A DNA stretch of 64,000 bases from Minisyncoccota bacterium (GTDB lineage Bacteria; Patescibacteriota; Minisyncoccia; JAHIHE01; JAGLIN01): the NCBI GenBank assembly GCA_041661265.1, contig JBAZUT010000003.1:79191-143190 (forward strand), read 5' to 3'. The notes below the pieces were generated by a model. The model saw only the letters and a program-made list of their open reading frames with translations. It had not been told where the DNA came from and searched no databases. Every line of letters starts with the position of its first letter. Position 1 is the stretch's first letter. Positions 7,041 through 60,654 of this stretch are shown one piece after another. The position numbers and the translations under genes were made by a program.

Positions 7041-7171
7041 ATTTAATAGAGGTTGTATTTTAAAGATGTTTTACATCTTTAGATTACAGCTTTGGTTAAC
7101 TAGTGATTATTGATTGTTGTTTATCACAAATATACATACTTGATATTTTGAAATATCGAGTACAAGAATTC

Positions 7172-7288
7172 TCTGGTGATTTTAGCGGCGAGGTAACACC
7201 TGATCCCATTTCGAACTCAGAAGTAAAGCTCGCTTGCGCCCATGGTACTTATTCCTTACGGAATCGGGAGAGTAGGTCATTGCCGGAG
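7172..7288 (+). rRNA. rrf: 5S ribosomal RNA
   Basis: CTGGTG...AGCGGCGAGGTAACACCTGATCCCATTTCGAACTCAGAAGTAAAG...GGGAGAGTAGGTCATTGCCGGAG, followed by a T-run. Confidence 0.85.
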
Positions 7289-29319: not shown

Positions 29320-29821
29320 AAATTTCGCCTGACAGCAAACTGAGTCCCGAGGTCTCGGGATGACAGACAACTGAGGGCTCGCATAGTCAATCTACTTTTT
29401 TTGAAGTGGTTGGCGGTTGCGGGCCCTTTTTGTAATAACGATCCGCAAGCGACAGATGACAGTATATTAATTAATAATGTTAAGCTGGTTTGAAAATCAA
29501 ACTACCGGCATTTAACATATATAAAGGTCGGAGTTGTTTATTTAAACCCTAAAGGTAATTAATTAACTTTAATTATATATGAGGGTGAAAGGTTTAAATA
29601 AGTAACTTAAAAAACTTTTATCAGTTAAATAAAAAAACTTCTGCCGAAGTTCAAAATATGGATCTTTGTAGATGTAACGCCTTTTTCGAAAGGTTTTACG
29701 AGGAAAGCGAGGCAATCCCGAATTCTCGGGACTGCCAAGCGGTGAAATCCTCGCAATTCATCACTAACATAATATTTATATTTTGTCAATATGTAGGCGG
29801 AAGCTTAAAAGGAAAATTACA

Positions 29822-30943: not shown

Positions 30944-31079
30944 TACGACTGAAACAATTGAAGTTTAATGTATTGCAGGGGGCGGCGACAAGCCGCCTCC
31001 GGAGAGGCTTGAAGCTAAATTATTTTGTTTTTGGTTTCAGACTTCTCGATAATTTATAATCAATAGAAAGCGAGGTATT

Positions 31080-32354
31080 ATGAAAATTAAACGCGCCGTA
31101 AAGCAAATATTCATAATAAGAAAACTATTGAAAACAGGTTTCAAAGTATCAGCTATTGCGGTGTTTGCATTTATTTCCTGCATTTATACATCCGTAAATG
31201 CCCAAGACCTTGAATTTTTAGGTGTGGCATCTGCTGACATCATTGTGGCAAATAGTGATATTGGCGAAAGCGCCAGCTCGACTTTTATAACCGAAGACAT
31301 CGTCGCAACCAATGATATTTCGGAAAGTGCGAGTTCGACTTTTATAATTCCGCAGGATGATAAGCATATATCAATTGGCCTGGATCCCGACTCTTCAAGT
31401 ATCCAGTCTCCGATCATCATGGCGAAATGGGAAGCGAATTCGGACAGATTTACGGATGCGGATGCGGCTGCCGGAGCTCAGTTTATGCCCTCAGGCCGTT
31501 ATGGGATCAATAAATCCATCGCATTCTGCGCAATTGTGGAAAATTCGGACGCCGCTGGCGCCGTTTATGCGGACGTTTACTATCCCGTAGGCGTGGCTCT
31601 TGGAAGCAGCTATACATCACTTCAGGGCCGATCCGGACTCGGTTGCGGAAAGATCATGCAAGAGCAGGGATTATTAAGGATTAATAAGGAATCAGGCATT
31701 GAACTTTTTTGCAATAAAATTAGGAATACAAATAATAATCTGCCTTCATTTGGAGCCGGATATGATTATGGAATTGCGTGCAACAATGAAGGAAGTTTGA
31801 TGAAAGAGACAGCTGCGGTTTATTGCGGTCTCAGGGACATTTCATATGGAGATCCTTCCGGCGATTATATTGTAAGGACTGTTGCCGATCAACCAAACGG
31901 GACAAGCAGCACTATAGAAGACATGTTCACATATTTTCCCGTTACGGCTTTTGAAACGGATTTTGATTCTATCGACTATGGCAAAGTGAAGCTGAATTCT
32001 AAAAAGGTTATCAGCGGAGATGCCATATTCGACATTACAACGATTAACAAACCGACAGTTCGAAATGTCGGCAACACGAGGCTTACTATGAGAATCGTCG
32101 AAGATGATATAGGACTTGGCAAGACATATGAAGATTGGAATGTGCGGTTTGATGCAAGAGTCGGAAATGTATCGGCATTTACGATCTTTGAACCGAATAC
32201 GCCTACTTTGCTCAATGACTCGCTCGGACTTTTGGATACGGAAAATATCGATTTCTCAGTGAATATATTCAGATTTCCGGAATCAGTCCGGGAAAGACTC
32301 GGAGGATCGATGATGCTGAGCGCAGAAGCCGCGCCACACCTTGCTTGCGAATAA
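31080..32354 (+). CDS. secreted protein, paralog B of tandem pair (contains internal 16-aa tandem repeat)
   Basis: 424 aa with N-terminal TM/signal. Repeat DIGESASSTFITEDIVATNDISESASSTFI at nt about 31262-31350. Same conserved blocks as paralog A. Confidence 0.6.
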   Translation: MKIKRAVKQIFIIRKLLKTGFKVSAIAVFAFISCIYTSVNAQDLEFLGVASADIIVANSDIGESASSTFITEDIVATNDISESASSTFIIPQDDKHISIGLDPDSSSIQSPIIMAKWEANSDRFTDADAAAGAQFMPSGRYGINKSIAFCAIVENSDAAGAVYADVYYPVGVALGSSYTSLQGRSGLGCGKIMQEQGLLRINKESGIELFCNKIRNTNNNLPSFGAGYDYGIACNNEGSLMKETAAVYCGLRDISYGDPSGDYIVRTVADQPNGTSSTIEDMFTYFPVTAFETDFDSIDYGKVKLNSKKVISGDAIFDITTINKPTVRNVGNTRLTMRIVEDDIGLGKTYEDWNVRFDARVGNVSAFTIFEPNTPTLLNDSLGLLDTENIDFSVNIFRFPESVRERLGGSMMLSAEAAPHLACE

Positions 32355-32404
32355 TACGAAATGTCAACGTTCCAGACAGAATACTCTTATAATTAATTAA
32401 ATCT

Positions 32405-33421
32405 ATGTACAAAAAAATGATGATCAGCATGACGAGAATACGATGCTTTCTTGTAGCAGTTTTTGTGGTCGCCGCATTGATACCGATCGAGACTCTTGGG
32501 ATCGGACAAACCACTGACCCTATCGCAATAAAAAATGCGCTGAGAGGAAATGAATACCAGCAGACCATGATCATAGTCAACACTGAAAAAACCGATTCGA
32601 CGATTGCGTTCGCCGCTCATGGAGACATTGATAAATGGGCTACATTCTATAAATTCAACGATTTCAGCACTCAACTGAGCGATGTCGTATTGAAAACGGG
32701 AGAGGTTCGCAATGTCAGCGTAGTATTCAAAATTCCTCAGGACACGCCCAATGGCGAATACAAAGGATTCATCAGTGCAGTCAAGAAAAATGATTCTTCA
32801 AGCTCAAGTGAAGGATCAAGCACTTCCGTTTCACAGGAAATAAACAGGGAGGTCACTATTGATGTAAATGATAATGAAGTTGTATCGTTCGAAGTCTCAG
32901 TCATTCCCAAGACATATGACCTTGTAAAAGGCGAGATGCTTGAGATCAGGCTTGTTTATGATAATAGAGGAAATACGAACATCACTCCTCAAGCCCAGAT
33001 CAAGATAAGGAAAGACGATCAGACCGTATATAATTCGATATATCCTTATCCGGAAAATGAACCGGGTGTGAAACCGGGAGCGGTATATGAAATTCCGGCT
33101 ATCCAGATCCCAACCAATAATTTCGAGAAAGGAAAGTTCCGCGCGGAAATGAATTTTCTTGTTGACGGAAAAATGATATTCGAAAAGAAATTCGGATTTT
33201 CCGTCGACATGCTGGGCGCCGACGACCAGGCCGGACTCGTTCTCGGGGCCAATGATAAAAACCTCATAAAAGGCATCACTGACATCGGCTTGCCTTTATA
33301 TGCGATCTTGGCATTATTCGTCATTGCAGGTATTTCTTTGATCTATAGAAAAAGCAAGCAAATGAAAAAGGTCCAAGTGATTCAAAAAGATATTTCCGAT
33401 GTCGCTGACGTGCAGCAATAA
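32405..33421 (+). CDS. cell-surface beta-rich protein with signal peptide and C-terminal TM anchor
   Basis: 338 aa. N-terminal hydrophobic signal, Ser-rich linker, CARDB/Ig-like stretches, C-terminal LPLYAILALFVIAGISLIYRKSKQ anchor. Confidence 0.5.
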   Translation: MYKKMMISMTRIRCFLVAVFVVAALIPIETLGIGQTTDPIAIKNALRGNEYQQTMIIVNTEKTDSTIAFAAHGDIDKWATFYKFNDFSTQLSDVVLKTGEVRNVSVVFKIPQDTPNGEYKGFISAVKKNDSSSSSEGSSTSVSQEINREVTIDVNDNEVVSFEVSVIPKTYDLVKGEMLEIRLVYDNRGNTNITPQAQIKIRKDDQTVYNSIYPYPENEPGVKPGAVYEIPAIQIPTNNFEKGKFRAEMNFLVDGKMIFEKKFGFSVDMLGADDQAGLVLGANDKNLIKGITDIGLPLYAILALFVIAGISLIYRKSKQMKKVQVIQKDISDVADVQQ

Positions 33422-33475
33422 AGCCAATGTTTTCAAATAGGATGATTAGGGGGGATTAACAATAACCGTAAACGT

Positions 33476-36322
33476 ATGAATGTGACCATGAGCGAGTGTT
33501 TGACGGAAACAAAAAGAATTGCAAAAAAGATCATAAATATAAAAAGAATAAACAGAGCGTTGTCCTTGATAAGCGTAATCGCACTCGTCGTGCAAACCAC
33601 GATTGCGGGAAATATTGCCGGCTCATTTGTTTTTAGTGCAAAACCGGCTTTTGCTGTTTCTGCTGGTAGTTCCGTGAGTAAGTGTGAATGGTGGAGCCAA
33701 GAAGAGATAACGCCTGGAAATTGGGGTTGGGCAAGTAAGATTAATTATGACGTCACCAAAGCATGGTGCGATGGGAAAAGTCTGCCTCCAAATCGTCTTT
33801 CAACGTATACTCCCGCAGCCACCGCGAAAATTTCAGGATATAAATACAAGGACATAATTAATGATGGAATTGACGAGGGGGATACAAAAATTGCGGGATG
33901 GGAAATCGTCCTCTCTGGCAGCAAGTCGGCCACGACATCAACCGATGCGAATGGATATTATGTATTCAGCGGACTTATGCCCGGCAATTACACAGTATCG
34001 GAAGGATCAAATGCCGAAAAAGGAACGTTCGTCCAAACAGTGCCTGCCGGAAGCAGCTATTCGATCGCACTATCGGAAGCAGAAAATAAAACAGGAAATG
34101 ATTTTGCGAATTATTTTCCGAGTTGCGGAAATTCACTGACAGATGTTTTTGATGTTTACAGCGAAGCCTGCGACGATGGGATCCTGAATGGCGTTTACGG
34201 CTACTGCAACAGCGATTGTTCCGGCCAAACTGCAAGCATTTGCGGTAATGGCGCAAAAGAAGGCGATGAACAGTGCGATATTAGCGATGGTGTGGGAGCA
34301 CATCAGTCATGTTCAGATCAATGTTCGATAATAGATCTTCCTTTTTGCGGGGACAGTGTCAAAAATGGAGATGAAGCCTGCGATGGAACAGACGGAGTCG
34401 GCGAGCATCAAGCATGCACGGAAAATTGCACTATCGTCGATCTGGCATTTTGCGGAGACCAGACAAAAAACGGGAATGAGCAGTGCGACGGAGGCGACGG
34501 AACAAGCGAGCATTACAGCTGTACAGCTTCATGCACACTTGAATATATCCCATATTGCGGCGACGAGATCAAGAATAATAATGAAGCTTGCGACACAAAT
34601 GACGGCATAGGAGACCATCAATCTTGCAACAATGAGTGTTCAATCGTGAATATCCCATATTGCGGCGACGAGATCAAGAATAATAATGAAGCTTGCGACA
34701 CAAATGACGGCATTGGAGACCATCAGTCTTGTTCAGAGACATGCTCGATTGTCGAGCTGCCTTACTGCGGTGATGGCGCTAAAAATCAGGAAACTGAGGC
34801 ATGTGATGACGGAAATGCGGCTAACGGCGACGGATGCTCGGCAACTTGCGAGACAGAGATGCCGCAAGGACCTGTTTGCGGCGACAATATCAAAAATGGA
34901 AATGAGCAGTGCGACGGAACGCAGGGCATAGGAGAGCACGAATCGTGCAATAGCCAGTGCGTCATCCAGAACGATCCGTATTGCGGAGATAATATTGTAA
35001 ATGGAACTGAAGGTTGTGACGGAACGGCAGGAGTGGGCGAATATCAGTCTTGTTCCAACGAATGCACCATCACGAATCTGCCATATTGCGGAGATGGAGA
35101 AAAGAACGCAGCGGACCAGTGTGATGACGGAAATGCGGCTAACGGCGACGGATGCTCGGCAACTTGCGAGATCGAGGAAGAAAATAGCAATAATAATGGA
35201 GAATCCGGCAACAACAATACGGGCGGAGGAGGTTCTGCTGCGATCATGCAGTTCAATATTTCGGGCGAATCGCTCAGGTCATCGAATATCCGCGAAGACA
35301 GCGTCACGATCACATGGCTGAGTTCGCATTTCGCATCAAGCCAGGTCATATATTCTCTGGAAGGAGAAAGCCACGATCTGGATCTCAATGATAATTCCGG
35401 CACGCCGCCGAAATACGGCTATGCGCATACCACGGCCGAATTCGACAAAGATCCGAAAGTCACGGGACATTCCGCCACGATCACCGGATTGACGCCTGGT
35501 TCCGTTTATTACTATAGAACCGTTTCGCGCGGATCGTTTGCGGTCAGTGAAGAAAAAAGCTTTACTTTGCCGGATGCTGTGGTCAACAATTCTGATGCGA
35601 ATACTGCTGAAACGGCGGTCGCCAATAATGACGAAGGAGAGGTGAAGGGAATCACGTCAACATCGGAAGGCGATTCTCGCGACTGCAATTACATATCGTC
35701 ATTCATCAGGATCGGCGGGATCAATGATCCCGGCGAAGTGGAGAAAGTTGAAAAATTCCTGAATGATTTTGAAAGTGAAAATCTTTCCGTTGATGGAAAA
35801 TTCGAGCAAGCGGATTCAGATGCGATATCAAGGTTCCAGAAGAAATACACGAGTGATATTCTCGTGCCGTGGAATGGCAACATTCCGACCGGAAACGTAT
35901 TTACCACAACGATGAGCAAGATAAATGAAATATATTGCAAGAAGGACTTGCCCCTGACCGCAATACAGCTTGACGAGATCAGTGCCACGAAGACAAGGCT
36001 TGCGCTCGCTATTGCAAACAGTTCATCTGGAGACACGGAAAGTCCGGCTGCAGACAAAACAGCTCAGGATGAAACCGCCAGTGAATCTGTTTCGAATGAT
36101 GCATCAACGAATAGTGAAAATGGAAATGTGAAAGGCGCGTCTTCGGAAAATACCGAGAACGGAAGCGACGGAAATATCAGTAATGAAACGGCAAAAAACA
36201 ACGAGATCGAAACGAAGGTGGCGGGATATCAGACATATCTGAATTATATTCTGATTTTTGCCATAATTGCATCGGCAATATATGGATATGGCTATTATCG
36301 AAAAGGTAAACGGGAAGAATAA
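33476..36322 (+). CDS. large surface protein: CnaB/carboxypeptidase-regulatory-like domain, about 10 Myxococcus-type cysteine-rich repeats, FN3-like domain, PG-binding-like domain, C-terminal TM anchor
   Basis: 948 aa. DANGYYVFSGLMPGNYTVSE. Repeats of CGDxxKNGNEQCDGxDGxGEHQSCSxxCxI and CGDGAKN..EACDDGNAANGDGCSATCE. SVTITWLSS...YYYRTVS (FN3-like). VDGKFEQADSDAISRFQKKY (PG_binding_1-like). YLNYILIFAIIASAIYGYGYY anchor. Confidence 0.65.
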   Translation: MNVTMSECLTETKRIAKKIINIKRINRALSLISVIALVVQTTIAGNIAGSFVFSAKPAFAVSAGSSVSKCEWWSQEEITPGNWGWASKINYDVTKAWCDGKSLPPNRLSTYTPAATAKISGYKYKDIINDGIDEGDTKIAGWEIVLSGSKSATTSTDANGYYVFSGLMPGNYTVSEGSNAEKGTFVQTVPAGSSYSIALSEAENKTGNDFANYFPSCGNSLTDVFDVYSEACDDGILNGVYGYCNSDCSGQTASICGNGAKEGDEQCDISDGVGAHQSCSDQCSIIDLPFCGDSVKNGDEACDGTDGVGEHQACTENCTIVDLAFCGDQTKNGNEQCDGGDGTSEHYSCTASCTLEYIPYCGDEIKNNNEACDTNDGIGDHQSCNNECSIVNIPYCGDEIKNNNEACDTNDGIGDHQSCSETCSIVELPYCGDGAKNQETEACDDGNAANGDGCSATCETEMPQGPVCGDNIKNGNEQCDGTQGIGEHESCNSQCVIQNDPYCGDNIVNGTEGCDGTAGVGEYQSCSNECTITNLPYCGDGEKNAADQCDDGNAANGDGCSATCEIEEENSNNNGESGNNNTGGGGSAAIMQFNISGESLRSSNIREDSVTITWLSSHFASSQVIYSLEGESHDLDLNDNSGTPPKYGYAHTTAEFDKDPKVTGHSATITGLTPGSVYYYRTVSRGSFAVSEEKSFTLPDAVVNNSDANTAETAVANNDEGEVKGITSTSEGDSRDCNYISSFIRIGGINDPGEVEKVEKFLNDFESENLSVDGKFEQADSDAISRFQKKYTSDILVPWNGNIPTGNVFTTTMSKINEIYCKKDLPLTAIQLDEISATKTRLALAIANSSSGDTESPAADKTAQDETASESVSNDASTNSENGNVKGASSENTENGSDGNISNETAKNNEIETKVAGYQTYLNYILIFAIIASAIYGYGYYRKGKREE
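34548..34733 (+). repeat. near-identical tandem duplication (about 80 nt units, 105-nt period) inside the Cys-rich repeat gene
   Basis: TCCCATATTGCGGCGACGAGATCAAGAATAATAATGAAGCTTGCGACACAAATGACGGCAT(A/T)GGAGACCATCA occurs at 34548 and 34653. A second 50-nt identical pair, GTGATGACGGAAATGCGGCTAACGGCGACGGATGCTCGGCAACTTGCGAG, is at 34803 and 35121. Confidence 0.8.
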
Positions 36323-51314: not shown

Positions 51315-51710
51315 ATGGTCATGAAGCCGCTCACAAACAAAGCAAAGGTCATAATACTGCTTATTGCTATTGCGATCATTGCAGTTGCTGTCGTATTTTA
51401 TACAAAGAATACAGCTTCTAAGAATAAGAATGACGCAAAGACGCTCATATCTTATTCAACCAGCAAAAACAGCTCGACGGTTTTTGACGCTCTTACGGAG
51501 TACGGCAAAGCCAATAACATAGAGATAAAATCAAGCATCGACAATCGGTATGGAGTATTTGTTGAAAGCATCGGCGGAATTAAAAACGGAGATGAAGGAA
51601 AATATTGGCAATACTATATCAATAACACGCTTGGCGATGTCGCCGCAGACAAAAAAGCAATAGGCAAGAACGATGTCGTCGAATGGCGATTTGAAAATGT
51701 TCCATTCTAA
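51315..51710 (+). CDS. membrane-anchored DUF4430-like protein
   Basis: N-terminal TM. C-terminal YWQYYINNTLGDVAADKKAIGKNDVVEWRFE resembles DUF4430. Confidence 0.4.
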   Translation: MVMKPLTNKAKVIILLIAIAIIAVAVVFYTKNTASKNKNDAKTLISYSTSKNSSTVFDALTEYGKANNIEIKSSIDNRYGVFVESIGGIKNGDEGKYWQYYINNTLGDVAADKKAIGKNDVVEWRFENVPF

Positions 51711-51721
51711 ATAAAAATAAT

Positions 51722-52294
51722 TTGATCAAAATGCTGAATATCAATGCGAAAACAAAGTTTATCTGTGCAATGATATTGATCGGCTCGGGAGTGACGGGAA
51801 GATTTTTGCTGGTAAGCTATTCCGGGATACCGAACCTTGAAATAATATCGGCACTGTCGCTCATTGCAGGAATATACATCGGCGGTGTTTATGCGGCGAT
51901 CGTTCCTATTTCAATCGTTTTTCTGAGCGATCTTGTTATCGGAAACAACTATATTTTCGTTTTTACATGGACAGCATTTGCGATCATAGGAGTATTCGGT
52001 TCTTTGTTCAAAGATAAATTCAAAAGCATAAAACTCGGCAATTCAATTGCGCTTGCGATATTATCGGCAACATTTTTCTATGTTTATACGAATTTCGGAT
52101 GGTGGCTGATGTCGGGAATGTACGAACACAGCTTGAATGGGTTGATCAGCTGTTATGCCGCAGGTCTGCCGTTTTTCAGAAACAATATTCTAGGTAATCT
52201 GATCTTCGTACCTTCTTTCATATATATGTTCCAGATGCTTTGGAAACATAGCCAAGCCGATATAGCGCTCAAAGCAATCAAGCATTATAACTAA
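51722..52294 (+). CDS. polytopic membrane protein (ECF-S-component-like, tentative)
   Basis: 190 aa with 5-6 TM helices. No specific motif. Confidence 0.4.
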   Translation: MIKMLNINAKTKFICAMILIGSGVTGRFLLVSYSGIPNLEIISALSLIAGIYIGGVYAAIVPISIVFLSDLVIGNNYIFVFTWTAFAIIGVFGSLFKDKFKSIKLGNSIALAILSATFFYVYTNFGWWLMSGMYEHSLNGLISCYAAGLPFFRNNILGNLIFVPSFIYMFQMLWKHSQADIALKAIKHYN

Positions 52295-53490: not shown

Positions 53491-54615
53491 ATGTCCAAAA
53501 CAAATATAAAAAAATCCGGAGCGATCCCTTCGCAGCTCATGAGACAGATGATATCGCGAGGCGAGATCGTGAAGGCAAAAAATGACAGCATTCAACCGGC
53601 AAGCATTGATCTATGCGTAAGCGATGAAGGATACAGAATGAAAGGGACATTCCTTCCCAAAAAGGGAGAGTCCGTGCGCGACATCATAAAAAATGAATCC
53701 CTGTATAGGATCAACCTCTCGAATCCGCTGGAAAAAAGTGGCGTCTATCTCATAAAACTGATCGAGAGCCTTGCGCTTTCTCCCGAGATCTTTGCGATAG
53801 CTTCGAGCAAGAGCTCAACCGGACGCGTTGATCTTCAGACCAGGCTGATCGTTGATGATAATTCGCGATTTGACGACGTGCCCTGCGGATACGAAGGAGA
53901 GCTATGGCTTCAGGTCATTCCGAAATCTTTTCTGATAAAATTGAACAGCGAAGATAAATTGAATCAGCTCCGGTTCTTCAATGGAGACGCAAAGCTGTCA
54001 CGCGATGAACTGCTGAAGCTTTACATATCTGAAAATCTTCTCGTCGATGATAATTTACGACCCATCGATTCAGATCAGAAACTTACTCAGAACCAAGGAT
54101 GCAATCTGACGATGTGCATCGACCTTGAAGGATCCGGGAATTCGAACATAATCGGATATAAGAATCTTCTCGTGGACCAGGTTTTGGATTTTTCAAAAAG
54201 AAACTACTATGATATGAATGATTTTTTTGAGCCCATAGCTAAACCGAGAGATGGAAAACTGATCTTGGAAAAAGGATCGTTTTATATTTTTTCAACCAAA
54301 GAGATGATCAGAGTACCGCGGAATTATTCCGCCGAAATGATCGCTTATGACATTTTTACGGGAGAATTCAGGAGCCACTATGCGGGATTTTTCGATCCCG
54401 GGTTCGGATATGGCGAAAAAGGGGAAATAAAGGGACGGCAGGCCGTGCTGGAGGTGAGATCCTTTGACAGCAATTTTATTTTTCGCGACGGACAACCGAT
54501 ATGCCAGATGAATTATGAGAACCTCGTGGAATCGCCCGATTTTGTCTATAGCGAGAAGATCGGATCTCATTATGCAAACCAGAAAGGTCCAAAACTGAGC
54601 AAACATTTCAAATAG
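53491..54615 (+). CDS. dcd: long-form 2'-deoxycytidine 5'-triphosphate deaminase family protein (PF06559-like)
   Basis: 374 aa. N-terminal IPSQLMRQMISRGEIV...PASIDLCVSDEGYRM resembles the dCTP deaminase/dUTPase fold. Sits in an operon with thyA, tmk and dut. Confidence 0.5.
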   Translation: MSKTNIKKSGAIPSQLMRQMISRGEIVKAKNDSIQPASIDLCVSDEGYRMKGTFLPKKGESVRDIIKNESLYRINLSNPLEKSGVYLIKLIESLALSPEIFAIASSKSSTGRVDLQTRLIVDDNSRFDDVPCGYEGELWLQVIPKSFLIKLNSEDKLNQLRFFNGDAKLSRDELLKLYISENLLVDDNLRPIDSDQKLTQNQGCNLTMCIDLEGSGNSNIIGYKNLLVDQVLDFSKRNYYDMNDFFEPIAKPRDGKLILEKGSFYIFSTKEMIRVPRNYSAEMIAYDIFTGEFRSHYAGFFDPGFGYGEKGEIKGRQAVLEVRSFDSNFIFRDGQPICQMNYENLVESPDFVYSEKIGSHYANQKGPKLSKHFK

Positions 54616-54668
54616 AAAGCGGGAGGATCGATTTTGTTTTTATCTGATACTATGTTAATTGATCTACT

Positions 54669-56171
54669 ATGAGCGATTTAGGCAATAGCAAGTGGCCGTT
54701 ATACAAAGACACAATGCTTATTTTTGGCAATCCCAAAAGCCAGGTTGGCATCTGCACGCTATGGACAAAAAAAGAGCTCGTTGCCGAAAAATTGGATCAA
54801 AATAAGTTTGCCGTCATGGGCAATCTTTATTCGCCGAGAAAAGGGATCAGTTTTTTATTTCGCAATCTGCTCGCAAATCCCAATATACGCCACCTGATCA
54901 TTTTGGGCCTCGACAATTCCAAAAGCGGCCAAGCGCTAGCTGATTTTTTTGATGGCGGATTTGAGAGATTCGAAGATGAGAAAACCAATACCATATATTG
55001 GAAAATAAGGAGCGGAGTCGATAACCGGATAGATTACGAAATCGACAAAGCCGCGCTGGATCTGCTGAGAGTAAATATTAATTTTATCGACTTGAGAAAA
55101 GAAAACGATCTTTCAAAAGTGCAAAGCATCATCAACAATTTAAAACAAGACCTCGAGTCTTACGCCTCAAAGCCGCTTCTTTTTCCGGATCCCGAGAAAA
55201 GCGATATAAATATGTATCCCTCCGAGCCAGCTGTCCATGTCGTTCGAGGCGCAAAAATTTCCGAAGTATGGGTTAAGATCCTTGATGAAATAATCAGATT
55301 CGGAGTAACTGACAAAACCTCATATCAAAACCGGCAGAAAGAGATCCTGGACCTTACGTCGATCATAACCGACGAGGATCCGGAAAATTTGCAAATTCCC
55401 GAATGGCTCCCGAATGACCGCGATCATCTCAGGAACTATCTGCCGACGATCCTGACCGCAAAATGCCCGGCTGGAGCTTCTTATACATATGGATCCAGAA
55501 TGCGCAGCTATTTCGGAGTTGACCAGGTCCAAAAGGCTGTGGATGAGCTCCTTCATGAAAAATACACCAGAAGGGCCGTGATCAATCTTTTGGATCCGAG
55601 AGTGGACTGCAACAGCAAAAATCCTCCTTGCCTGAACCATTGCTGGTTCCGAATTCAGAATGACAAAATATATCTTGTAGCAACGATCAGAAGCAATGAT
55701 ATGTTCGAAGCGTGGCCGGAAAATGCATTCGGCCTGCGCATGCTTCAATTTTTGGTGTACAAGTCCATTCTTGCCAAATATCCCGAAGTAAAGCTTGGGG
55801 ATCTCGTCATCCATTCCCAATCCGCTCATATATACGATGACTCTTGGGATGAAGCGAAGAATATCATCCAGAACCATTATATTGAAACAGTCAAGCATCC
55901 AAGGAATGAAATAGATCCAAGGGGGAATTTTCTCATTAAAACCGATGACGACGAGATCATTGTCGAACATTATTCGCATGACGAGCTTCTTCTTTCATCG
56001 TATAAGGGAAAAAATGCCATGTTGATCTATCTGAGGATATCCAGAGACAGAGCCATCTCCAATATCAATCATGCTATTTACCTCGGAACAGAGCTTCAGA
56101 AGGCTGAGGAATCGATAAGATTGCGGATTCAATATGAACAAGATAAAGACCTGAAGTATAAACGAAAATAA
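54669..56171 (+). CDS. thyA: thymidylate synthase (ThyA-type, divergent/archaeal-like) fused to an about 190-aa N-terminal MtrA-like domain
   Basis: C-terminal half: PPCLNHCWFRIQNDKIYLVATIRSNDMF...FGLRMLQFLVYKSI...LGDLVIHSQSAHIYDD matches the ThyA catalytic Cys / RSxD / aHiY pattern. N-terminal VGICTLWT...LANPNIRHLIILG resembles the NPNIRFLILCG block of MtrA-like proteins (from memory). Confidence 0.6.
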   Translation: MSDLGNSKWPLYKDTMLIFGNPKSQVGICTLWTKKELVAEKLDQNKFAVMGNLYSPRKGISFLFRNLLANPNIRHLIILGLDNSKSGQALADFFDGGFERFEDEKTNTIYWKIRSGVDNRIDYEIDKAALDLLRVNINFIDLRKENDLSKVQSIINNLKQDLESYASKPLLFPDPEKSDINMYPSEPAVHVVRGAKISEVWVKILDEIIRFGVTDKTSYQNRQKEILDLTSIITDEDPENLQIPEWLPNDRDHLRNYLPTILTAKCPAGASYTYGSRMRSYFGVDQVQKAVDELLHEKYTRRAVINLLDPRVDCNSKNPPCLNHCWFRIQNDKIYLVATIRSNDMFEAWPENAFGLRMLQFLVYKSILAKYPEVKLGDLVIHSQSAHIYDDSWDEAKNIIQNHYIETVKHPRNEIDPRGNFLIKTDDDEIIVEHYSHDELLLSSYKGKNAMLIYLRISRDRAISNINHAIYLGTELQKAEESIRLRIQYEQDKDLKYKRK

Positions 56172-56227
56172 ACCCATCTCCGCCGCCTGCACCGGACGCA
56201 AACAGCCACATCAATACAATGACGATT

Positions 56228-56260
56228 TGACGAAATGCCGGTGTGTGGTCTATACTGAAA
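56228..56260 (+). promoter_or_regulatory. putative promoter (TTGACG, 17 nt spacer, TATACT) upstream of tmk-dut
   Basis: Consensus-like hexamers in the 420-nt thyA-tmk intergenic region. Confidence 0.35.
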
Positions 56261-56618
56261 TCAGGAATGATTGCATGATAAAAAACGATCGAAAGCAAAT
56301 AATTCTAAATAAAAAAACCCTGGTCCGATTATAAAGAAACAAATAAAAATTAGATTTAAATCAACGATTGTGCTTTTCTATTGTGCATTATTGTTATGAA
56401 CTGAGCCTATCCATCATTTGATTTGGAAGGTTTTTATTTTATGCAAATTCAGATCTTGCCACAAGAATTATGTATGCTCGAATCAGGAATCGGTGCGATT
56501 TTAGTTCTTTTTCATTCGAGGAATATAATGCATGTTGAATTGGCGCCAACGAGGCGAGATCCTGACTTCCGAAGTTATGCGCTATCTGTTATAATTGTAC
56601 TATACAATATCAAATCAA

Positions 56619-57311
56619 ATGAAGAACTATAACCCTAAAGGCAAATTAATCGTGATTGATGGCATTGACGGAGCGGGAAAAGCCACTCAAACGAAACTTC
56701 TTCTGGAAAAACTCAAGGAGTCGGGCAAGGCCGCAGAAACCATGGACTTTCCTCGATATTATGATAATTTCTTCGGGAAACTGATCGGAAGATTCCTGAA
56801 TAATGAATTTGGAGACGCGCCGAATGTAAATCCATATCTTGCATCCGTCCTTTATGCAGCAGACAGATTCGAATCAAAGGAAAAAATATCCGCCTGGCTG
56901 AAAGACGGCAAAATAGTCATATTGGACAGATATGCTTCTTCGAATCAGATCCATCAGGGAGGAAAGATACATGATACAATTGAAAAGGAGACCTTCCTAA
57001 AATGGCTTGAAGAAATGGAATTCGAAGTGTTTAAAATACCGAAACCCGATGCGATTATCTTTCTCAATGTGCCTTACGATTATTCCAAGGACCTTTTGAA
57101 GAAAAAATCGGCACGAGATTATATAAAAAAAGCCAAAAACGACAAAGTCGAGAAAGATAAACAATATCAGACATCTTCATATATCCAATCACTGGACCTT
57201 GTAAAAAAATACAATAATTGGCTGGAAATAAATTGTGTTGAAAATAATGAATTGCTCCCGCCTGATAAAATAAGCGATCTCGTCTGGAATAAATTGAAAA
57301 ATATTATTTAA
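56619..57311 (+). CDS. tmk: thymidylate kinase
   Basis: P-loop LIVIDGIDGAGKATQ, DRYASSNQIHQ (DRY/LID region). Track ORF opens at TTG 56595; first ATG is at 56619. Confidence 0.75.
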   Translation: MKNYNPKGKLIVIDGIDGAGKATQTKLLLEKLKESGKAAETMDFPRYYDNFFGKLIGRFLNNEFGDAPNVNPYLASVLYAADRFESKEKISAWLKDGKIVILDRYASSNQIHQGGKIHDTIEKETFLKWLEEMEFEVFKIPKPDAIIFLNVPYDYSKDLLKKKSARDYIKKAKNDKVEKDKQYQTSSYIQSLDLVKKYNNWLEINCVENNELLPPDKISDLVWNKLKNII

Positions 57312-57321
57312 TACCCCGAGA

Positions 57322-57753
57322 ATGAAAACAATTGGAATTGTGAAAGTGAATGATGATGCCAGGATCCCGTCATATGCTCATGCGGAAGATGCGGGAATGG
57401 ATCTTTTTTCAAACGAAAATGACTATATGTTGAAAGCTGGAGAAAGAAAAGGCTTTTCGACCGGAATAAAAATGGAGATTCCCGATGGCTATGCAGGGCT
57501 CGTCTGGGATAAAAGCGGCCTAGCTTTCAAAAATGGCATTAAAACGATGGCTGGGGTTATTGATTCGACTTATAGGGGAGAGATAGTGATAATTATGATA
57601 AATCTCGGAGATTCCGGATATCTGGTGGAGAAAGGCTCCAAAATAGCACAAATGATAGTACAAAAAATTGAGCATTTCGAGCTTTCTGTTCAGACTTCCA
57701 TTGAAAATACATCCAGAGGAGAAAAAGGATTCGGAAGTACCGGTCTAAAATAA
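57322..57753 (+). CDS. dut: dUTP diphosphatase
   Basis: All five dUTPase motifs: AGMDL, KSGL, GVIDSTYRGE, KIAQ, RGEKGFGSTG. Confidence 0.88.
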   Translation: MKTIGIVKVNDDARIPSYAHAEDAGMDLFSNENDYMLKAGERKGFSTGIKMEIPDGYAGLVWDKSGLAFKNGIKTMAGVIDSTYRGEIVIIMINLGDSGYLVEKGSKIAQMIVQKIEHFELSVQTSIENTSRGEKGFGSTGLK

Positions 57754-57896: not shown

Positions 57897-59129
57897 ATGA
57901 AGGTTCTCATGTTTGGATGGGAATTTCCTCCGTTCAACAGCGGAGGATTGGGAACCGCTTGCTATGGAATAACAAAGGCGCTGTCCGGTAAAGGCGTTCA
58001 AGTAAATTTTGTAATGCCCCGGACTGTCAATGTTAAAGAAGACTTTCTGAACCTGATTTCCACCAATCTACCAAAAATAAAAATAAAAGAAATAGATTCT
58101 CTTCTTGTTTCTTATATAACGTCTCAGAACTACAGGAGAAGGTTTTTGGAGTTGGATAAAGACGTTAGAACGTTCTATTGCAGCAATCTTATCGAAGAAG
58201 TTTACAGATATGCGGTTGCGGCGGAAGGCATCGCAAGAGATGTGCGGCATGACATAATCCATTCTCACGATTGGATGACGTTCCCGGCCGGCATAGCGGC
58301 AAAGAGAATCTCGGGAAAACCTCTTGTTGTGCATGTGCATTCCACGGAATTCGACAGGTCTGCCGGACATGGTGTAAATCCCGAAGTTTATAAGATCGAG
58401 AGAGAGGGGATCGAGAAGGCCGATCGGGTGATAGCAGTCAGCAGGTACACAAAAGACAAGATCATGCGAAATTATAATATTGACGGAAGCAAGATCGACG
58501 TTGTATATAATGCGATTTATAAAAATGAATTCTCTTCCCAATCCGATTGCAAGAGCCAGTTCAATTTTATGGGAAAAAAGATCGTGCTTTTCCTCGGAAG
58601 ACTTACATTGCACAAAGGACCCGACTATTTCCTTTCTGCCGCAAAGAAAGTATTGGACAGAAATAATAATGTAATTTTCGTGATCGCTGGATCCGGGGAC
58701 ATGGAACACCAGGTGATCGAACAAGCTTCCGAAATGGGAATTGCCGATAAGGTTCTGTTTACGGGATTTCTCAGGGATGCTCAGCTCCGGAAGATCTATA
58801 AGATGGCGAATTTATATGTGATGCCGTCCGTTTCCGAGCCATTCGGGATCACCCCGCTTGAAGCGATCGCCAGCGGAACTCCGGTGATCGTTTCGAAACA
58901 ATCCGGCGTGAGCGAGGTGCTTGATCATTGCCTGAAAGTCGATTTCTGGGACGTGAATGAAATGGCCAACAAAATCATATCCGTATTGGAAAACCAGGAG
59001 CTTGAGGATTGCCTGTGCGGCAACAGCTTCAAAGAGATCGATAAATTGAGATGGGAATTTTCAGCAGACAGAATAATTGATATCTATAACAGCTTAACAA
59101 GAGCAAACGCCATACATCATGGCCAATAA
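57897..59129 (+). CDS. GT4-family glycosyltransferase (putative alpha-glucan/glycogen synthase)
   Basis: MKVLMFGWEFPPFNSGGLGTACYG N-terminus. C-terminal EPFGITPLEAIASGTPVI. Adjacent to a GH57 gene. Confidence 0.65.
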   Translation: MKVLMFGWEFPPFNSGGLGTACYGITKALSGKGVQVNFVMPRTVNVKEDFLNLISTNLPKIKIKEIDSLLVSYITSQNYRRRFLELDKDVRTFYCSNLIEEVYRYAVAAEGIARDVRHDIIHSHDWMTFPAGIAAKRISGKPLVVHVHSTEFDRSAGHGVNPEVYKIEREGIEKADRVIAVSRYTKDKIMRNYNIDGSKIDVVYNAIYKNEFSSQSDCKSQFNFMGKKIVLFLGRLTLHKGPDYFLSAAKKVLDRNNNVIFVIAGSGDMEHQVIEQASEMGIADKVLFTGFLRDAQLRKIYKMANLYVMPSVSEPFGITPLEAIASGTPVIVSKQSGVSEVLDHCLKVDFWDVNEMANKIISVLENQELEDCLCGNSFKEIDKLRWEFSADRIIDIYNSLTRANAIHHGQ

Positions 59130-59140
59130 AAACTAAAACC

Positions 59141-60346
59141 ATGCCTTCAGTGTGTTTTTATTTTCAAGTTCATCAGCCTTTCAGAATAAAAAGATATTCC
59201 GTTTTTGACATTGGGTCCGATCATAATTATTTCGACGACACTAATTTGAATGAAAAAGGAACAAGAGCGGTCATCGATAAGGTATCAAAAAAGTGCTATC
59301 TCCCCACAAATGAGATCCTATATGATTTGATCAGAAGAAATCCGGAATTTAAAATAAGCTATTCATTTTCAGGAACAGCAATTGAGCAGATGGAAATGTT
59401 TGCGCCCGAAGTATTGGAATCATTTGTGAAACTCGCAAAAACGGGAAATGTTGAGATCCTTGATGAAACATATTATCACTCACTATCATTTTTCTATTCT
59501 GACGAAGAGTTCATCAGGCAAGTCGAACTTCACAGGAGCAAAATAAAGGAAGTATTCGGACTCGAACCGAAAGTATTCCGTAACACTGAACTTGCCTACA
59601 ACAATGAGCTGGCCGCCTTGATTGAAAGTATGGGATATAAAGGGATAATTGCCGAGGGATGGGATTATTATTTGGGGCATAGATCGCCGAACTTTCTGTA
59701 TAAACCCAAAGGCACGCGAAAGATCAAACTTCTGCTTAAAAATTATAAGCTTTCAGACGACATTGCATTTAGATTTTCAAATAAAGGCTGGGCGGAATAT
59801 CCGCTCTATGCACCGAAATTCTGCCAGTGGGTGAATTCGATAAACGGCAACGGAAATACGGTGAACCTATTCATGGATTATGAAACATTTGGAGAGCACC
59901 AGTGGGAGGACAGCGGAATATTCAATTTCCTCAGAGCGCTCCCAAGCGAGCTCCTGAAGCATCCGGATAACAACTTCAAAACGCCTTCGGAGCTGGTCGA
60001 TTCATACAGCACCATGGATGAAGTGGATGTACATGGCATATTGACATGGGCGGACACTGAGAGAGATCTTTCCGCCTGGACGGGAAATTCAATGCAGAAA
60101 TCAGCACTCAGAAAGATCTATGAAATCGAAGAAGATGTGATCAATGCCAATGACAAGAAGCTTCTCGATGACTGGAGGAAAATGCAGACCAGCGATCATT
60201 TCTATTACATGTGCACAAAATGGTTCTCGGATGGAGACGTTCACAAGTATTTCAGTCCATACGAATCGCCATATGAAGCATTTATAAGCTATATGAACGT
60301 ATTGAACGACTTCAAAATTCGATTATTGGAATTTAAAAATAATTAA
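59141..60346 (+). CDS. glycoside hydrolase family 57 (alpha-glucan-active)
   Basis: N-terminal FYFQVHQPFR signature of GH57. 401 aa. Confidence 0.65.
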   Translation: MPSVCFYFQVHQPFRIKRYSVFDIGSDHNYFDDTNLNEKGTRAVIDKVSKKCYLPTNEILYDLIRRNPEFKISYSFSGTAIEQMEMFAPEVLESFVKLAKTGNVEILDETYYHSLSFFYSDEEFIRQVELHRSKIKEVFGLEPKVFRNTELAYNNELAALIESMGYKGIIAEGWDYYLGHRSPNFLYKPKGTRKIKLLLKNYKLSDDIAFRFSNKGWAEYPLYAPKFCQWVNSINGNGNTVNLFMDYETFGEHQWEDSGIFNFLRALPSELLKHPDNNFKTPSELVDSYSTMDEVDVHGILTWADTERDLSAWTGNSMQKSALRKIYEIEEDVINANDKKLLDDWRKMQTSDHFYYMCTKWFSDGDVHKYFSPYESPYEAFISYMNVLNDFKIRLLEFKNN

Positions 60347-60366
60347 GTAATAATAAAAAAAACAAT

Positions 60367-60654
60367 ATGGCAAGAAAAACACAAAAACCGGATCTCGTTA
60401 CAGTCGATGGGGATCTGTGCTTCTGGATCAACAACGGCCCGGCCCTGAGAAACATGAAGGATCTCTCGGATGCGCTCAAGAACATCAGCGAGGAATCATA
60501 TGCCTATCATGTGAATTCCGAAAAAAATGACTTCGCGAACTGGGCATTGAATGCGCTTCAGGATGAGACGCTTTCATTAAAGCTATCTAAATCAAAAAAC
60601 GTAAAAGCAGCCATCAAGGCGGTGGATGACAGATTGAAAAAATACAACGTATAG
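60367..60654 (+). CDS. hypothetical small protein
   Basis: 95 aa with good RBS context. No recognised family. Confidence 0.35.
   Translation: MARKTQKPDLVTVDGDLCFWINNGPALRNMKDLSDALKNISEESYAYHVNSEKNDFANWALNALQDETLSLKLSKSKNVKAAIKAVDDRLKKYNV

What the first reader, a model, noticed from the sequence alone, without database searches (positions are those of the whole stretch)
53491..57753. Compact dCTP-to-dTDP operon with unusual enzyme architectures (long-form Dcd, and ThyA with extra N-terminal domain)
Four consecutive genes encode dCTP deaminase-family (374 aa long form), thymidylate synthase, thymidylate kinase and dUTPase. This is every step from dCTP through dUTP, dUMP and dTMP to dTDP. ThyA is a 500-aa protein. 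Its C-terminal about 310 aa carry the ThyA catalytic pattern (PPCLNHCWF...RSND...SAHIYDD). The N-terminal about 190 aa form a separate domain (VGICTLWT...NLLANPNIRHLIILG) that, from memory, resembles MtrA-like proteins. That could hint at a non-folate C1 donor or cofactor handling. Alternatively, as with phage dNMP hydroxymethylases, the ThyA homolog may make a modified pyrimidine rather than dTMP.
Basis: partly seen in the sequence, partly recalled or inferred. Interest (0 to 1): 0.6.

Follow-up and report, generated by a model that had tools for sequence, protein, structure and literature searches.

The report
Three-domain thymidylate synthase gene cluster
A tiny-genome (Paceibacterota/CPR) bacterium keeps its four genes for turning dCTP into dTDP side by side, and its thymidylate synthase is a three-domain form, on which I found no paper, that also occurs in DPANN archaea, cyanobacteria and phages and carries two strongly conserved extra domains with no known job.

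Summary
Four + strand genes encode a long-form dCTP deaminase, a 500-aa ThyA, dTMP kinase and dUTPase.

The protein is MtrA-like (residues 7-171), then a minimal methanogen-type ThyA core (186-405), then DUF4346 (416-492).

This architecture is not a one-off:
- At least 1750 proteins share it in Patescibacteria and DPANN archaea.
- It occurs in about 35 cyanobacterial species.
- It is on at least 95 viral contigs.

It sits beside dCTP or dCMP deaminase, dUTPase, dTMP kinase or ribonucleotide reductase, and is sometimes fused to dCMP deaminase. All dUMP-side catalytic residues are invariant, including Asn352, which specifies uracil. It is therefore almost certainly a working dTMP synthase, not a modified-base enzyme.

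Three points remain unusual:
- MtrA's cobalt ligands His84 and Glu54 are absent, while its nucleotide-tail pocket is conserved.
- Canonical folate-contact residues are lost.
- DUF4346 has no solved structural relative.

The role of the two flanking domains is unknown, and I found no paper on them. The long Dcd is an ordinary known family (PDB 2R9Q). A 447-bp spacer splits the "operon".

The parts
53491..54615 (+). dcd, long-form (tandem-domain) dCTP deaminase, 374 aa
   Evidence: Pfam DCD_N (157 bits) and DCD_C (186 bits). NCBIfam NF005734 scores 356.7 against a cut-off of 283. PDB 2R9Q matches at E = 1e-76. The KSSxGR motif (107-112) and VLE (319-321) are invariant in the clade.
54669..56171 (+). 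thyA, three-domain thymidylate synthase, 500 aa
   Evidence: The AlphaFold model has mean pLDDT 90.5 and pTM 0.84.
54687..55181 (+). MtrA-like Rossmann-type domain (residues 7-171)
   Evidence: Pfam PF04208 scores 33.2 against a gathering score of 25. NCBIfam NF002126 gives E = 2.8e-15. PDB 5L8X/5LAA/8Q3V match at E = 2e-5 to 8e-4. Invariant across 74 homologues: G20, G51, S55, G59, R65, N66, N70, G97. MtrA His84 and Glu54 are not conserved.
55224..55883 (+). Minimal ThyA catalytic core (residues ~186-405), nearest to the methanogen type
   Evidence: TIGR03283 scores 144.6 bits over residues 191-395 (cut-off 174.55). PF00303 scores 60.1 against 24.3. hhalign to E. coli ThyA gives probability 96%. 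C321, R341, S342, D344, N352, H387, Y389 and Y274 are invariant. Foldseek returns ThyA-fold structures.
55914..56144 (+). DUF4346 ('PterinBD-DUF4346') domain (residues 416-492)
   Evidence: PF14251 scores 73.2 against 29.6. It also matches the C-terminus of the DHPS-like family TIGR00284. The model is three strands then two helices, pLDDT 88.5. No PDB relative was found by sequence or by fold. Invariant: D416, G419, H468, E475, A479, Y489, Q491.
56172..56618 (.). 447-bp spacer between thyA and tmk
   Evidence: No ORF above noise. No Rfam match. Folding z-score is +0.99. No similarity to relatives, where the gap is 4-75 bp. One promoter-like site lies at 56227-56256, but such sites are not enriched in the region.
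56619..57311 (+). tmk, dTMP kinase, 230 aa from ATG 56619
   Evidence: PF02223 scores 84.5 against 27. TIGR00041 scores 81.5, just under its cut-off of 83.25. The gene call in identical contigs is 230 aa.
57322..57753 (+). dut, dUTPase, 143 aa
   Evidence: PF00692 scores 106.8. TIGR00576 scores 148.5 against 102.55. NF001862 scores 141.8 against 103.
51315..52294 (+). Possibly associated: a DUF4430 secreted or anchored protein plus a DUF6580 putative ECF-type S-component (vitamin uptake pair?)
   Evidence: PF14478 scores 57 bits and PF20221 scores 115 bits. NCBI names the second 'DUF6580 family putative transport protein', and some relatives also hit the ECF S-component family PF12822. The pair is conserved next to the cluster in 5 related Patescibacteria loci. 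In L009 it sits directly before dcd rather than between rplK and rplA. The link to the cluster is inferred, not shown.

Best explanation
This is the cell's dTMP/dTDP supply cluster.

Proposed pathway:
1. Dcd deaminates dCTP to dUTP.
2. Dut hydrolyses dUTP to dUMP.
3. The ThyA core makes dTMP by the classical route. Cys321 adds to C6 of dUMP. C5 takes a methylene from a reduced pterin donor, most likely 5,10-methylene-tetrahydrofolate in this bacterium. Hydride transfer then releases dTMP and a dihydropterin.
4. Tmk makes dTDP.

The ThyA belongs to a widespread but, as far as I could find, unstudied three-domain family: MtrA-like domain, minimal methanogen-type core, DUF4346. It occurs in Patescibacteria, DPANN archaea, cyanobacteria and phages.

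My best guess for the two flanking domains is that they build or close the cofactor side of the active site. They would replace the folate-binding loop and C-terminal tail that the minimal core has lost.

Shown: gene identities, domain architecture, conservation, distribution and genomic context. Inferred: the thymidylate synthase chemistry. Speculative: the role of the flanking domains.
For: Catalytic residues:
- Alignment to E. coli ThyA gives Y274=Y94, C321=C146, R341=R166, S342=S167, D344=D169, N352=N177, H387=H207 and Y389=Y209.
- These are invariant in 74 cellular and 79 viral homologues.

Genomic context:
- Patescibacteria: dcd-thyA-tmk(-dut).
- Saccharibacteria: dCMP deaminase fused to the enzyme.
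- Cyanobacteria: thyA followed by dCMP deaminase, dut or a DCD-like gene in more than 25 loci.
- DPANN: thyA followed by dcd, and in L021 NrdJ-CobA-thyA-dcd.
- Phages: next to NrdA/NrdB, with a terminase or virion protein nearby.

The COG census gives cyanobacteria 23 ThyX plus 8 ThyA in 31 genomes, which fits one thymidylate synthase per genome (PMC5954106).

Both extra domains carry invariant residues across clades only ~37% identical to each other. The whole protein models as one confident unit (pTM 0.84).

DUF4346 also ends a pterin-binding DHPS-like family (TIGR00284).

Canonical folate contacts are changed: L172 to E347 and F176 to E351 (or Ser/Ala in other members). The W80/W83 segment is shortened to 41 residues from 59.
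Against: - No biochemical data exist for any member.
- Single-domain methanogen-type ThyA apparently works without these domains, so they are not needed for core chemistry.
- ~395-aa paralogues keep both flanking domains but have lost the catalytic Cys. The flanking module therefore has some function independent of thymidylate synthase catalysis.
- I could not inspect model coordinates, so domain packing over the active site is untested.
- The protein falls below NCBIfam equivalog cut-offs for every ThyA model.
Confidence: 0.6

Rival explanations
1. The flanking domains are regulatory or assembly modules. They might give allosteric control by nucleotides, or dock the enzyme to other dNTP-synthesis enzymes. 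They would take no part in cofactor binding or chemistry.
For: - Paralogues keep both domains while losing the catalytic Cys.
- The conserved MtrA pocket residues (S55, G59, L63, N66) are those that hold a nucleotide tail in MtrA. The pocket could therefore bind a nucleotide effector.
- Single-domain methanogen enzymes exist.
Against: - The core has lost canonical folate-contact elements, and something must replace them.
- DUF4346 recurs with another pterin enzyme.
- Invariant D/H/E/Y/Q residues in DUF4346 look more like a ligand or catalytic site than an interface.
Confidence: 0.15
2. The flanking domains are a built-in dihydropterin reductase. They would recycle the dihydrofolate made by the core, as a functional analogue of protozoan DHFR-TS. 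This would allow life without FolA.
For: - DUF4346 is attached to two enzymes whose products are 7,8-dihydropterins: ThyA here and the DHPS-like TIGR00284 family.
- There is precedent for a DHPS fused to a reductase in H. pylori, and for unidentified DHFRs in cyanobacteria (PMC1971073).
- No FolA homologue lies within ±5-6 kb in ~160 loci.
Against: - No NAD(P)H or flavin motif and no DHFR-family hit.
- The MtrA fold is known for corrinoid binding, not hydride transfer.
- Absence of folA nearby is weak evidence, and whole genomes could not be checked.
Confidence: 0.1
3. The MtrA-like domain binds a corrinoid without a histidine ligand. The enzyme would then methylate dUMP through a methyl-cobamide relay, re-methylated from methyl-pterin held by DUF4346. 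No dihydrofolate would be produced.
For: - Homology to the cobalamin-binding MtrA, with the nucleotide-tail pocket residues conserved (T53/G57/V61/N64 map to S55/G59/L63/N66).
- Cobalamin-related neighbours: DUF4430 (the transcobalamin C-terminal domain type, PMC4350170) plus an ECF-like S-component in Patescibacteria, and CobA/BtuR-like genes in 19 cyanobacterial and 4 DPANN loci.
Against: - The cobalt ligand His84 and its partner Glu54 are absent in all members.
- The pterin-binding Asp (D344) and the Tyr/His of the classical mechanism are invariant.
- The CobA neighbours are explained at least as well by the adjacent adenosylcobalamin-dependent NrdJ.
Confidence: 0.1
4. The ThyA homologue is a pyrimidine hydroxymethylase or other base-modifying enzyme, and the organism's DNA carries a modified base.
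For: - ThyA-fold enzymes include dCMP/dUMP hydroxymethylases and a flavin-dependent dCMP hydroxylase. The latter (9IQU) is the best match when the TM-score is normalised by target length (0.79).
- The family occurs in phages.
Against: - Asn352 (uracil-specific) is invariant, and no Asp variant occurs.
- It appears to be the only thymidylate synthase neighbour of dcd, dut and tmk in cellular genomes of three phyla, including cultured cyanobacteria.
- No hydroxymethyl-dNMP kinase or DNA-base glycosyltransferase was identified next to it; the downstream GT4/starch-synthase-like gene sits with a GH57 glycoside hydrolase.
Confidence: 0.03

Closest known systems
Canonical thymidylate synthase ThyA (EC 2.1.1.45, PF00303; e.g. 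E. coli, human)
   Same: Same fold. The same catalytic Cys and dUMP-binding residues. The same place in the pathway, next to dUMP-producing enzymes and tmk.
   Different: The core is ~215 aa rather than ~264-313. Its N-terminal half cannot be aligned to canonical ThyA by profile comparison. Folate contacts L172 and F176 are replaced, and the W80/W83 loop and C-terminal tail are absent. Two extra domains flank the core.
Methanogen-type thymidylate synthase (NCBIfam TIGR03283; MJ0757/MTH774 type)
   Same: It is the best-scoring ThyA model (144.6 bits over residues 191-395). It shares the minimal core and the extra N-terminal strand.
   Different: The score is below the family cut-off of 174.55. 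From my own knowledge, the methanogen enzymes are single-domain and are thought to use methylene-tetrahydromethanopterin. This protein has three domains and occurs in bacteria, including folate-using cyanobacteria.
MtrA, the cobalamin-binding subunit of methyl-H4MPT:CoM methyltransferase, and its cytoplasmic homologues (PDB 5L8X, 5LAA)
   Same: Detectable sequence homology over ~100-160 residues. The motif N-x-(L/I)-(A/S)-N-P-N-I-R-x-L and the nucleotide-tail pocket residues are conserved.
   Different: The cobalt ligand His84 and Glu54 are absent. There is no membrane anchor and no mtr operon. The domain is fused to ThyA. Corrinoid binding is untested.
Bifunctional DHFR-TS of protozoa and plants
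   Same: A thymidylate synthase fused to another domain on a ~500-aa chain. Foldseek aligns the T. cruzi DHFR-TS over the full length, but only the TS part fits (rmsd ~20 Å).
   Different: There is no DHFR domain. The extra domains are MtrA-like and DUF4346 and lie on both sides of the core.
Archaeal dihydropteroate-synthase-like proteins with a C-terminal DUF4346 (NCBIfam TIGR00284)
   Same: They share the DUF4346 domain at the C-terminus of a pterin-using enzyme (residues 392-495 match profile positions 400-497 of 497).
   Different: The catalytic domain differs (DHPS-like versus ThyA). No MtrA-like match to this model was seen.
Long-form dCTP deaminase (NF005734/PRK07559; PDB 2R9Q, Agrobacterium)
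   Same: The window's Dcd is a member. It scores above the cut-off and matches full-length at E = 1e-76.
   Different: Nothing notable. One difference is Gln141 where 2R9Q has Glu in the N-terminal half. The C-terminal-half VLE321 is conserved.

Membership tests
Thymidylate synthase ThyA (PF00303) | Pfam gathering score | tested here: met
   60.1 bits against 24.3, residues 273-439.
Thymidylate synthase ThyA (PF00303) | Catalytic cysteine (E. coli C146) | tested here: met
   C321. Conserved in 74/74 cellular and 79/79 viral homologues.
Thymidylate synthase ThyA (PF00303) | dUMP-binding and specificity residues R166, S167, D169, N177, H207, Y209, Y94 | tested here: met
   R341, S342, D344, N352, H387, Y389 and Y274 are all invariant. 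The R126 equivalent (R301) is present here but lost in some cyanobacteria.
Thymidylate synthase ThyA (PF00303) | Canonical folate-contact elements (W80/W83 loop, L172, F176, C-terminal tail) | tested here: not met
   L172 becomes E347 and F176 becomes E351 (Ser/Ala in others). The loop region is 41 residues against 59 and cannot be aligned. The C-terminal tail is replaced by DUF4346.
Thymidylate synthase ThyA (PF00303) | NCBIfam equivalog cut-offs for canonical ThyA models | tested here: not met
   23-45 bits against cut-offs of 108-427.
Thymidylate synthase ThyA (PF00303) | Converts dUMP to dTMP | not testable with these tools
   Needs complementation or an enzyme assay.
Methanogen-type ThyA (TIGR03283) | Score at or above the curated cut-off | tested here: not met
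   144.6 bits against 174.55.
Methanogen-type ThyA (TIGR03283) | Single-domain ~200-aa protein of methanogens | tested here: not met
   500 aa with three domains. Hosts are Paceibacterota, DPANN, cyanobacteria and phages.
MtrA (PF04208 / TIGR01111) | Pfam gathering score | tested here: met
   33.2 bits against 25, residues 7-171.
MtrA (PF04208 / TIGR01111) | NCBIfam equivalog cut-off | tested here: not met
   28.7 bits against 249.15.
MtrA (PF04208 / TIGR01111) | Cobalt axial ligand His84 and its hydrogen-bond partner Glu54 | tested here: not met
   They align to S84 or Q88, and to P56. No His occurs at these columns in 74 homologues.
MtrA (PF04208 / TIGR01111) | Nucleotide-tail pocket residues (Thr53, Gly57, Val61, Asn64) | tested here: met
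   S55, G59, L63 and N66, conserved in 69-73 of 74.
MtrA (PF04208 / TIGR01111) | Membrane anchor and mtrB-H operon context | tested here: not met
   The domain is followed by ThyA. The annotated ±10 kb around it holds no mtr genes.
MtrA (PF04208 / TIGR01111) | Binds a corrinoid | not testable with these tools
   Needs purified protein (UV-vis, cobalt analysis).
Pyrimidine (dCMP/dUMP) hydroxymethylases of the ThyA fold | Asp in place of Asn177 in cytosine-specific enzymes | tested here: not met
   N352 is invariant. The Asn/Asp rule is from established knowledge of T4 gp42 and E. coli N177D.
Pyrimidine (dCMP/dUMP) hydroxymethylases of the ThyA fold | Product is a hydroxymethylated nucleotide | not testable with these tools
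   dUMP hydroxymethylases cannot be told from thymidylate synthases by these residues. Context argues for a thymidylate synthase.
Long-form dCTP deaminase (NF005734) | Curated cut-off and full-length match to the solved member | tested here: met
   356.7 bits against 283. 2R9Q matches at E = 1e-76 over residues 30-374.
Bifunctional DHFR-TS | A DHFR (PF00186) domain | tested here: not met
   No DHFR hit in the protein. No FolA homologue in ~160 loci.

The most novel reading that the evidence does not exclude
The MtrA-like and DUF4346 domains give this thymidylate synthase a non-canonical cofactor cycle. Either they reduce the dihydropterin product in place, acting as a DHFR analogue, or they relay a methyl group through a histidine-free corrinoid. 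In either case, carriers in the Patescibacteria, DPANN archaea, cyanobacteria and phages could make dTMP without FolA.
Probability: 0.18. Interest if true: 0.85.

Novelty: new variant of a known kind. Interest (0 to 1): 0.55.

Why it matters
Thymidylate synthase is one of the best-studied enzymes and a classic drug target. This is a form with two extra, strongly conserved domains borrowed from methanogen C1 metabolism.

It is the apparent housekeeping enzyme of three large lineages and of many phages, yet I found no paper on it. Databases label it only 'thymidylate synthase' or 'DUF4346 protein'.

If the extra domains handle the cofactor, this could explain how organisms with no recognisable dihydrofolate reductase recycle or avoid dihydrofolate, a gap noted since 2003-2007. 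It would also assign a function to DUF4346 and to non-methanogen MtrA homologues.

If the domains are only structural, the finding still corrects annotation. It also defines a clean, testable family, because cultured cyanobacteria carry it.

Tried and rejected
- **Literature.** Searches for DUF4346, PF14251, TIGR03283, MJ0757, 'MtrA + thymidylate synthase' and DUF6580 found nothing relevant.
- **DUF4346.** No PDB relative by profile or by fold (best E = 0.12).
- **Alignment to canonical ThyA.** hhalign against E. coli alone, or E. coli plus human, aligns only the C-terminal half of the core. Equivalents of E58, W80 and W83 remain undetermined.
- **DUF4430 and DUF6580 versus PDB.** Single sequences and profiles gave nothing.
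- **Isolated phages (INPHARED).** None carries the three-domain form. Only core-only hits were found, such as Methanobacterium virus PhiF1. PHROGs has no family for either flanking domain.
- **Corrinoid neighbours.** The CobA/BtuR neighbours first looked like support for corrinoid use. I then found them beside adenosylcobalamin-dependent NrdJ, so I treat them as ambiguous.
- **Window content.** Pfam annotation of most of the window's long ORFs (about half the window) found no folA, glyA, folD or B12 enzyme. Folate status cannot be judged from this window.
- **2007 folate census.** The cyanobacteria it lists all use ThyX, so it does not say whether ThyA-type cyanobacteria have FolA.
- **Spacer 56172-56618.** No ORF, no RNA family, no structure signal and no homology.
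- **P0001 look-up** failed.

Full report
**Observation.**
- ORF 53491-54615 (374 aa) carries Pfam DCD_N and DCD_C. It passes the NCBIfam equivalog for the long 2'-deoxycytidine 5'-triphosphate deaminase (356.7 bits, cut-off 283).
- ORF 57322-57753 is a dUTPase (TIGR00576, 148.5 bits against 102.55).
- The third gene is a dTMP kinase (PF02223, 84.5 bits). Its likely start is ATG 56619, giving the 230 aa called in identical contigs from other samples.
- ORF 54669-56171 (500 aa) is the thymidylate synthase.
- Upstream lie secE (per the gene calls of an identical contig), nusG, rplK and rplA. The window also holds a bacterial rRNA operon.
- NCBI labels an identical neighbouring protein 'Candidatus Paceibacterota bacterium'. 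The host is therefore a Patescibacteria (CPR) bacterium.

**Anatomy of the ThyA.** The protein has three domains, not two.
- Residues 7-171 match Pfam MtrA (33.2 bits, gathering score 25) and NCBIfam cytoplasmic MtrA-homologue models (E = 2.8e-15).
- Residues 191-395 match the methanogen-type thymidylate synthase model TIGR03283 (144.6 bits, below its 174.55 cut-off). This is far better than any canonical ThyA model (45 bits or less).
- Residues 416-492 match PterinBD-DUF4346 (73 bits).
- An AlphaFold model built on 34 homologues is confident throughout (pLDDT 90.5, pTM 0.84).
- Foldseek against the PDB returns ThyA-fold proteins only. The best target-normalised TM-score (0.79) goes to a short ThyA-fold enzyme, 9IQU.
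- The 54669 start is supported by conserved residues W9, P10, Y12 and K13. The JGI gene call starting at Met16 cuts these off.

**Distribution.** The architecture is common.
- A protein search gave at least 1750 hits. The best 120 were all full-length, with the same Pfam domains. Identity was 58-80% in Patescibacteria. It was 41-47% in the more distant hits, which where named are Woese-, Aenigmat- and Nanoarchaeota plus one Saccharibacteria fusion.
- A scan of one genome per species found 187 loci. The best 80 include about 35 cyanobacteria, among them cultured Moorena, Anabaena azotica, Aliterella and Scytonema. These match over residues ~10-496 at 37-41% identity.
- At least 95 IMG/VR viral contigs encode it full-length. 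These include real phages. One 84-kb contig has NrdA, NrdB and a virion protein beside it. Another has a terminase 3 kb away.
- No isolated phage in GenBank has the three-domain form.
- A search with the N-domain alone against 1.8 billion representatives found only 554 clusters. Most of the top 150 are ~460-540-aa proteins with the domain at the N-terminus. This MtrA-like subfamily therefore lives essentially in this fusion.

**Context.**
- In seven related Patescibacteria loci the order dcd-thyA-tmk is kept; dut follows in three of them.
- In a Saccharibacteria genome, a dCMP deaminase domain is fused to the three-domain protein and tmk follows it; another unplaced representative carries the same fusion.
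- In cyanobacteria the gene is followed by dCMP deaminase in more than 20 loci, or by dut. DCD-like and nucleoside-deoxyribosyltransferase-like genes often follow.
- In DPANN archaea a short dCTP deaminase (TIGR02274, 207 bits) follows within a few bases. One Nanoarchaeota locus reads NrdJ-CobA-thyA-dcd.
- Such repeated association with enzymes that make dUMP or use dTMP, in lineages only ~37% identical to one another, is strong evidence for dTMP synthesis.
- A 2018 review counts 23 ThyX and 8 ThyA in 31 cyanobacterial genomes, which fits one thymidylate synthase per genome. It does not mention extra domains (PMC5954106).

**Catalytic residues.**
- Profile alignment to E. coli ThyA (probability 96%) equates the following pairs:

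| Window protein | E. coli ThyA |
|---|---|
| Y274 | Y94 |
| R301 | R126 |
| C321 | C146 |
| R341 | R166 |
| S342 | S167 |
| D344 | D169 |
| N352 | N177 |
| H387 | H207 |
| Y389 | Y209 |

- Over 74 cellular and 79 viral homologues these residues are invariant, except R301.
- From established knowledge of T4 dCMP hydroxymethylase and the E. coli N177D mutant, Asn at this position selects uracil and Asp selects cytosine. Here it is always Asn.
- The cofactor side is different. L172 and F176, which contact folate in E. coli, are E347 and E351 here, and Ser or Ala in other members. The segment that should hold E58, W80 and W83 is 41 residues instead of 59. It cannot be aligned even with a two-sequence canonical profile. 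The canonical C-terminal tail is replaced by DUF4346.

**The MtrA-like domain.**
- The structure paper on MtrA (PMC4915002) shows cobalamin bound base-off/His-on.
- His84 ligates cobalt and is held by Glu54. The nucleotide tail is bound by Thr53, Gly57, Val61 and Asn64, among others.
- In the alignments to 5L8X and 5LAA, His84 falls on S84 or Q88 and Glu54 on P56. No homologue has His there.
- The tail-pocket positions are kept as S55, G59, L63 and N66, conserved in 69-73 of 74 sequences. The shared motif N-x-L-A-N-P-N-I-R-x-L is striking.
- The domain is therefore a true homologue that has lost MtrA's cobalt ligation but kept a pocket suited to a phosphate or nucleotide-bearing ligand. What it binds is unknown.

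**DUF4346.**
- The domain models confidently on its own as three strands then two helices (pLDDT 88.5).
- It has no solved relative by profile or by fold (best E = 0.12).
- D416, G419, H468, E475, A479, Y489 and Q491 are invariant across all clades.
- The same domain ends the archaeal dihydropteroate-synthase-like family TIGR00284.
- It also ends ~395-aa proteins made of an MtrA-like domain, a degenerate ThyA core without the catalytic Cys, and DUF4346.
- One such paralogue lies in the same Woesearchaeota assembly as a full enzyme.

**Mechanism and rivals.**
- I take the cluster as the dTMP/dTDP supply line. I take the core as a classical reductive methylase of dUMP (confidence about 0.85 for that part).
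- For the flanking domains, my leading idea is that they form the cofactor side of the site that the minimal core lacks (about 0.35).
- Alternatives are a regulatory or assembly role (0.15), a built-in dihydropterin reductase (0.10), and a histidine-free corrinoid methyl relay (0.10).
- Cobalamin-flavoured neighbours exist. They are DUF4430 (a transcobalamin-type domain, PMC4350170) plus an ECF-like DUF6580 protein in Patescibacteria, and CobA/BtuR-like genes in 19 cyanobacterial and 4 DPANN loci.
- The CobA genes sit next to adenosylcobalamin-dependent NrdJ in the DPANN locus checked. They do not discriminate between the ideas.
- No FolA homologue lies within ±5-6 kb of the gene in ~160 loci. 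This is weak evidence, and whole genomes could not be examined.
- The modified-base idea is very unlikely (0.03).

**The other genes.**
- The long Dcd is ordinary. It matches the Agrobacterium structure 2R9Q at E = 1e-76. It keeps KSSxGR (107-112) and VLE (319-321), which are invariant in its clade.
- Its only oddity is Gln141 where 2R9Q has Glu in the N-terminal half.
- thyA and tmk are 447 bp apart, against 4-75 bp in most relatives (2.3 kb with other genes in L005). The spacer has no ORF, no RNA family, no folding signal and no homology.
- The four genes may therefore be two transcription units.

**Novelty.**
- The domain hits are already precomputed in public databases. The proteins are named 'thymidylate synthase' or 'DUF4346 domain-containing protein'.
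- I found no paper that describes the architecture or tests it.
- I class it as a new variant of a known kind. It is interesting mainly because a housekeeping enzyme of three large lineages and many phages carries two constrained domains of unknown function tied to pterin and corrinoid enzyme families.

Noticed in passing
window 51315-52294: A DUF4430 protein (131 aa, N-terminal hydrophobic segment) and a DUF6580 multi-pass membrane protein (190 aa; 'putative transport protein', relatives also hit ECF S-component PF12822) are inserted between rplK and rplA. The pair recurs beside the dcd-thyA cluster in 5 related loci. In L009 it lies directly before dcd. It may be a vitamin (cobamide or folate) uptake pair.
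   Followed up: partly
window 56172-56618: An unusually long (447 bp, 36.5% GC) non-coding spacer lies between thyA and tmk in an otherwise compact region. It has no ORF, no Rfam hit, no structure signal, and no similarity to relatives or to the rest of the window.
   Followed up: yes
window 945-7288: An rRNA operon with two tRNAs between 16S and 23S. The 23S spans 3213 nt against a 2925-position model, which implies an insertion of roughly 290 nt. The 16S is only 1462 nt.
   Followed up: no
window 14441-18067 (- strand): A 1208-aa class I tRNA synthetase (LeuRS-like by its domains) has a precomputed Pfam hit to Ham1p_like, a non-canonical NTP pyrophosphatase, listed between its tRNA-synt_1g and Anticodon_1 hits.
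   Followed up: no
L087 8001-9188 (P0124); also P0216, P0224, P0265, P0219: ~380-410-aa paralogues have an MtrA-like domain, a degenerate ThyA core lacking the catalytic Cys and the RSxD motif, and usually DUF4346. P0124 is in the same Woesearchaeota assembly (GCA_018302085.1) as a full three-domain enzyme (L034).
   Followed up: partly
L010 5395-7338; P0054, P0233: A dCMP deaminase domain is fused to the three-domain ThyA, giving four domains in 648-733 aa. L010 is a Saccharibacteria genome, where the fused gene is followed by tmk and preceded by nusG-rplK; the origin of P0233 is not known.
   Followed up: partly
L021 1555-8235: A Nanoarchaeota operon reads NrdJ (adenosylcobalamin-dependent RNR, intein-containing) - CobA - three-domain ThyA - Dcd. 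It is a compact dNTP supply unit.
   Followed up: partly
L055 8433-8969 and 18 other cyanobacterial loci: A CobA-like P-loop NTPase (NCBIfam NF005648, 323 bits) is a conserved near neighbour of the three-domain thyA in cyanobacteria. Adenylate kinase and RNase PH are also conserved nearby.
   Followed up: partly
window 54669-54713: The JGI gene call for this ThyA (P0001, 485 aa) starts at Met16. It drops the conserved residues W9-P-x-Y12-K13.
   Followed up: yes
window 57897-60654: Directly downstream lies a glycogen-type cluster: a GT4/starch-synthase-like glycosyltransferase, a GH57 glycoside hydrolase and a DUF5752 protein.
   Followed up: no
window 29783-36322: Three consecutive ORFs (386, 424 and 338 aa) have no Pfam match. 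They are followed by a 948-aa protein with surface-type repeats (DUF4215, SdrD_B, purple acid phosphatase N-terminal domain).
   Followed up: no
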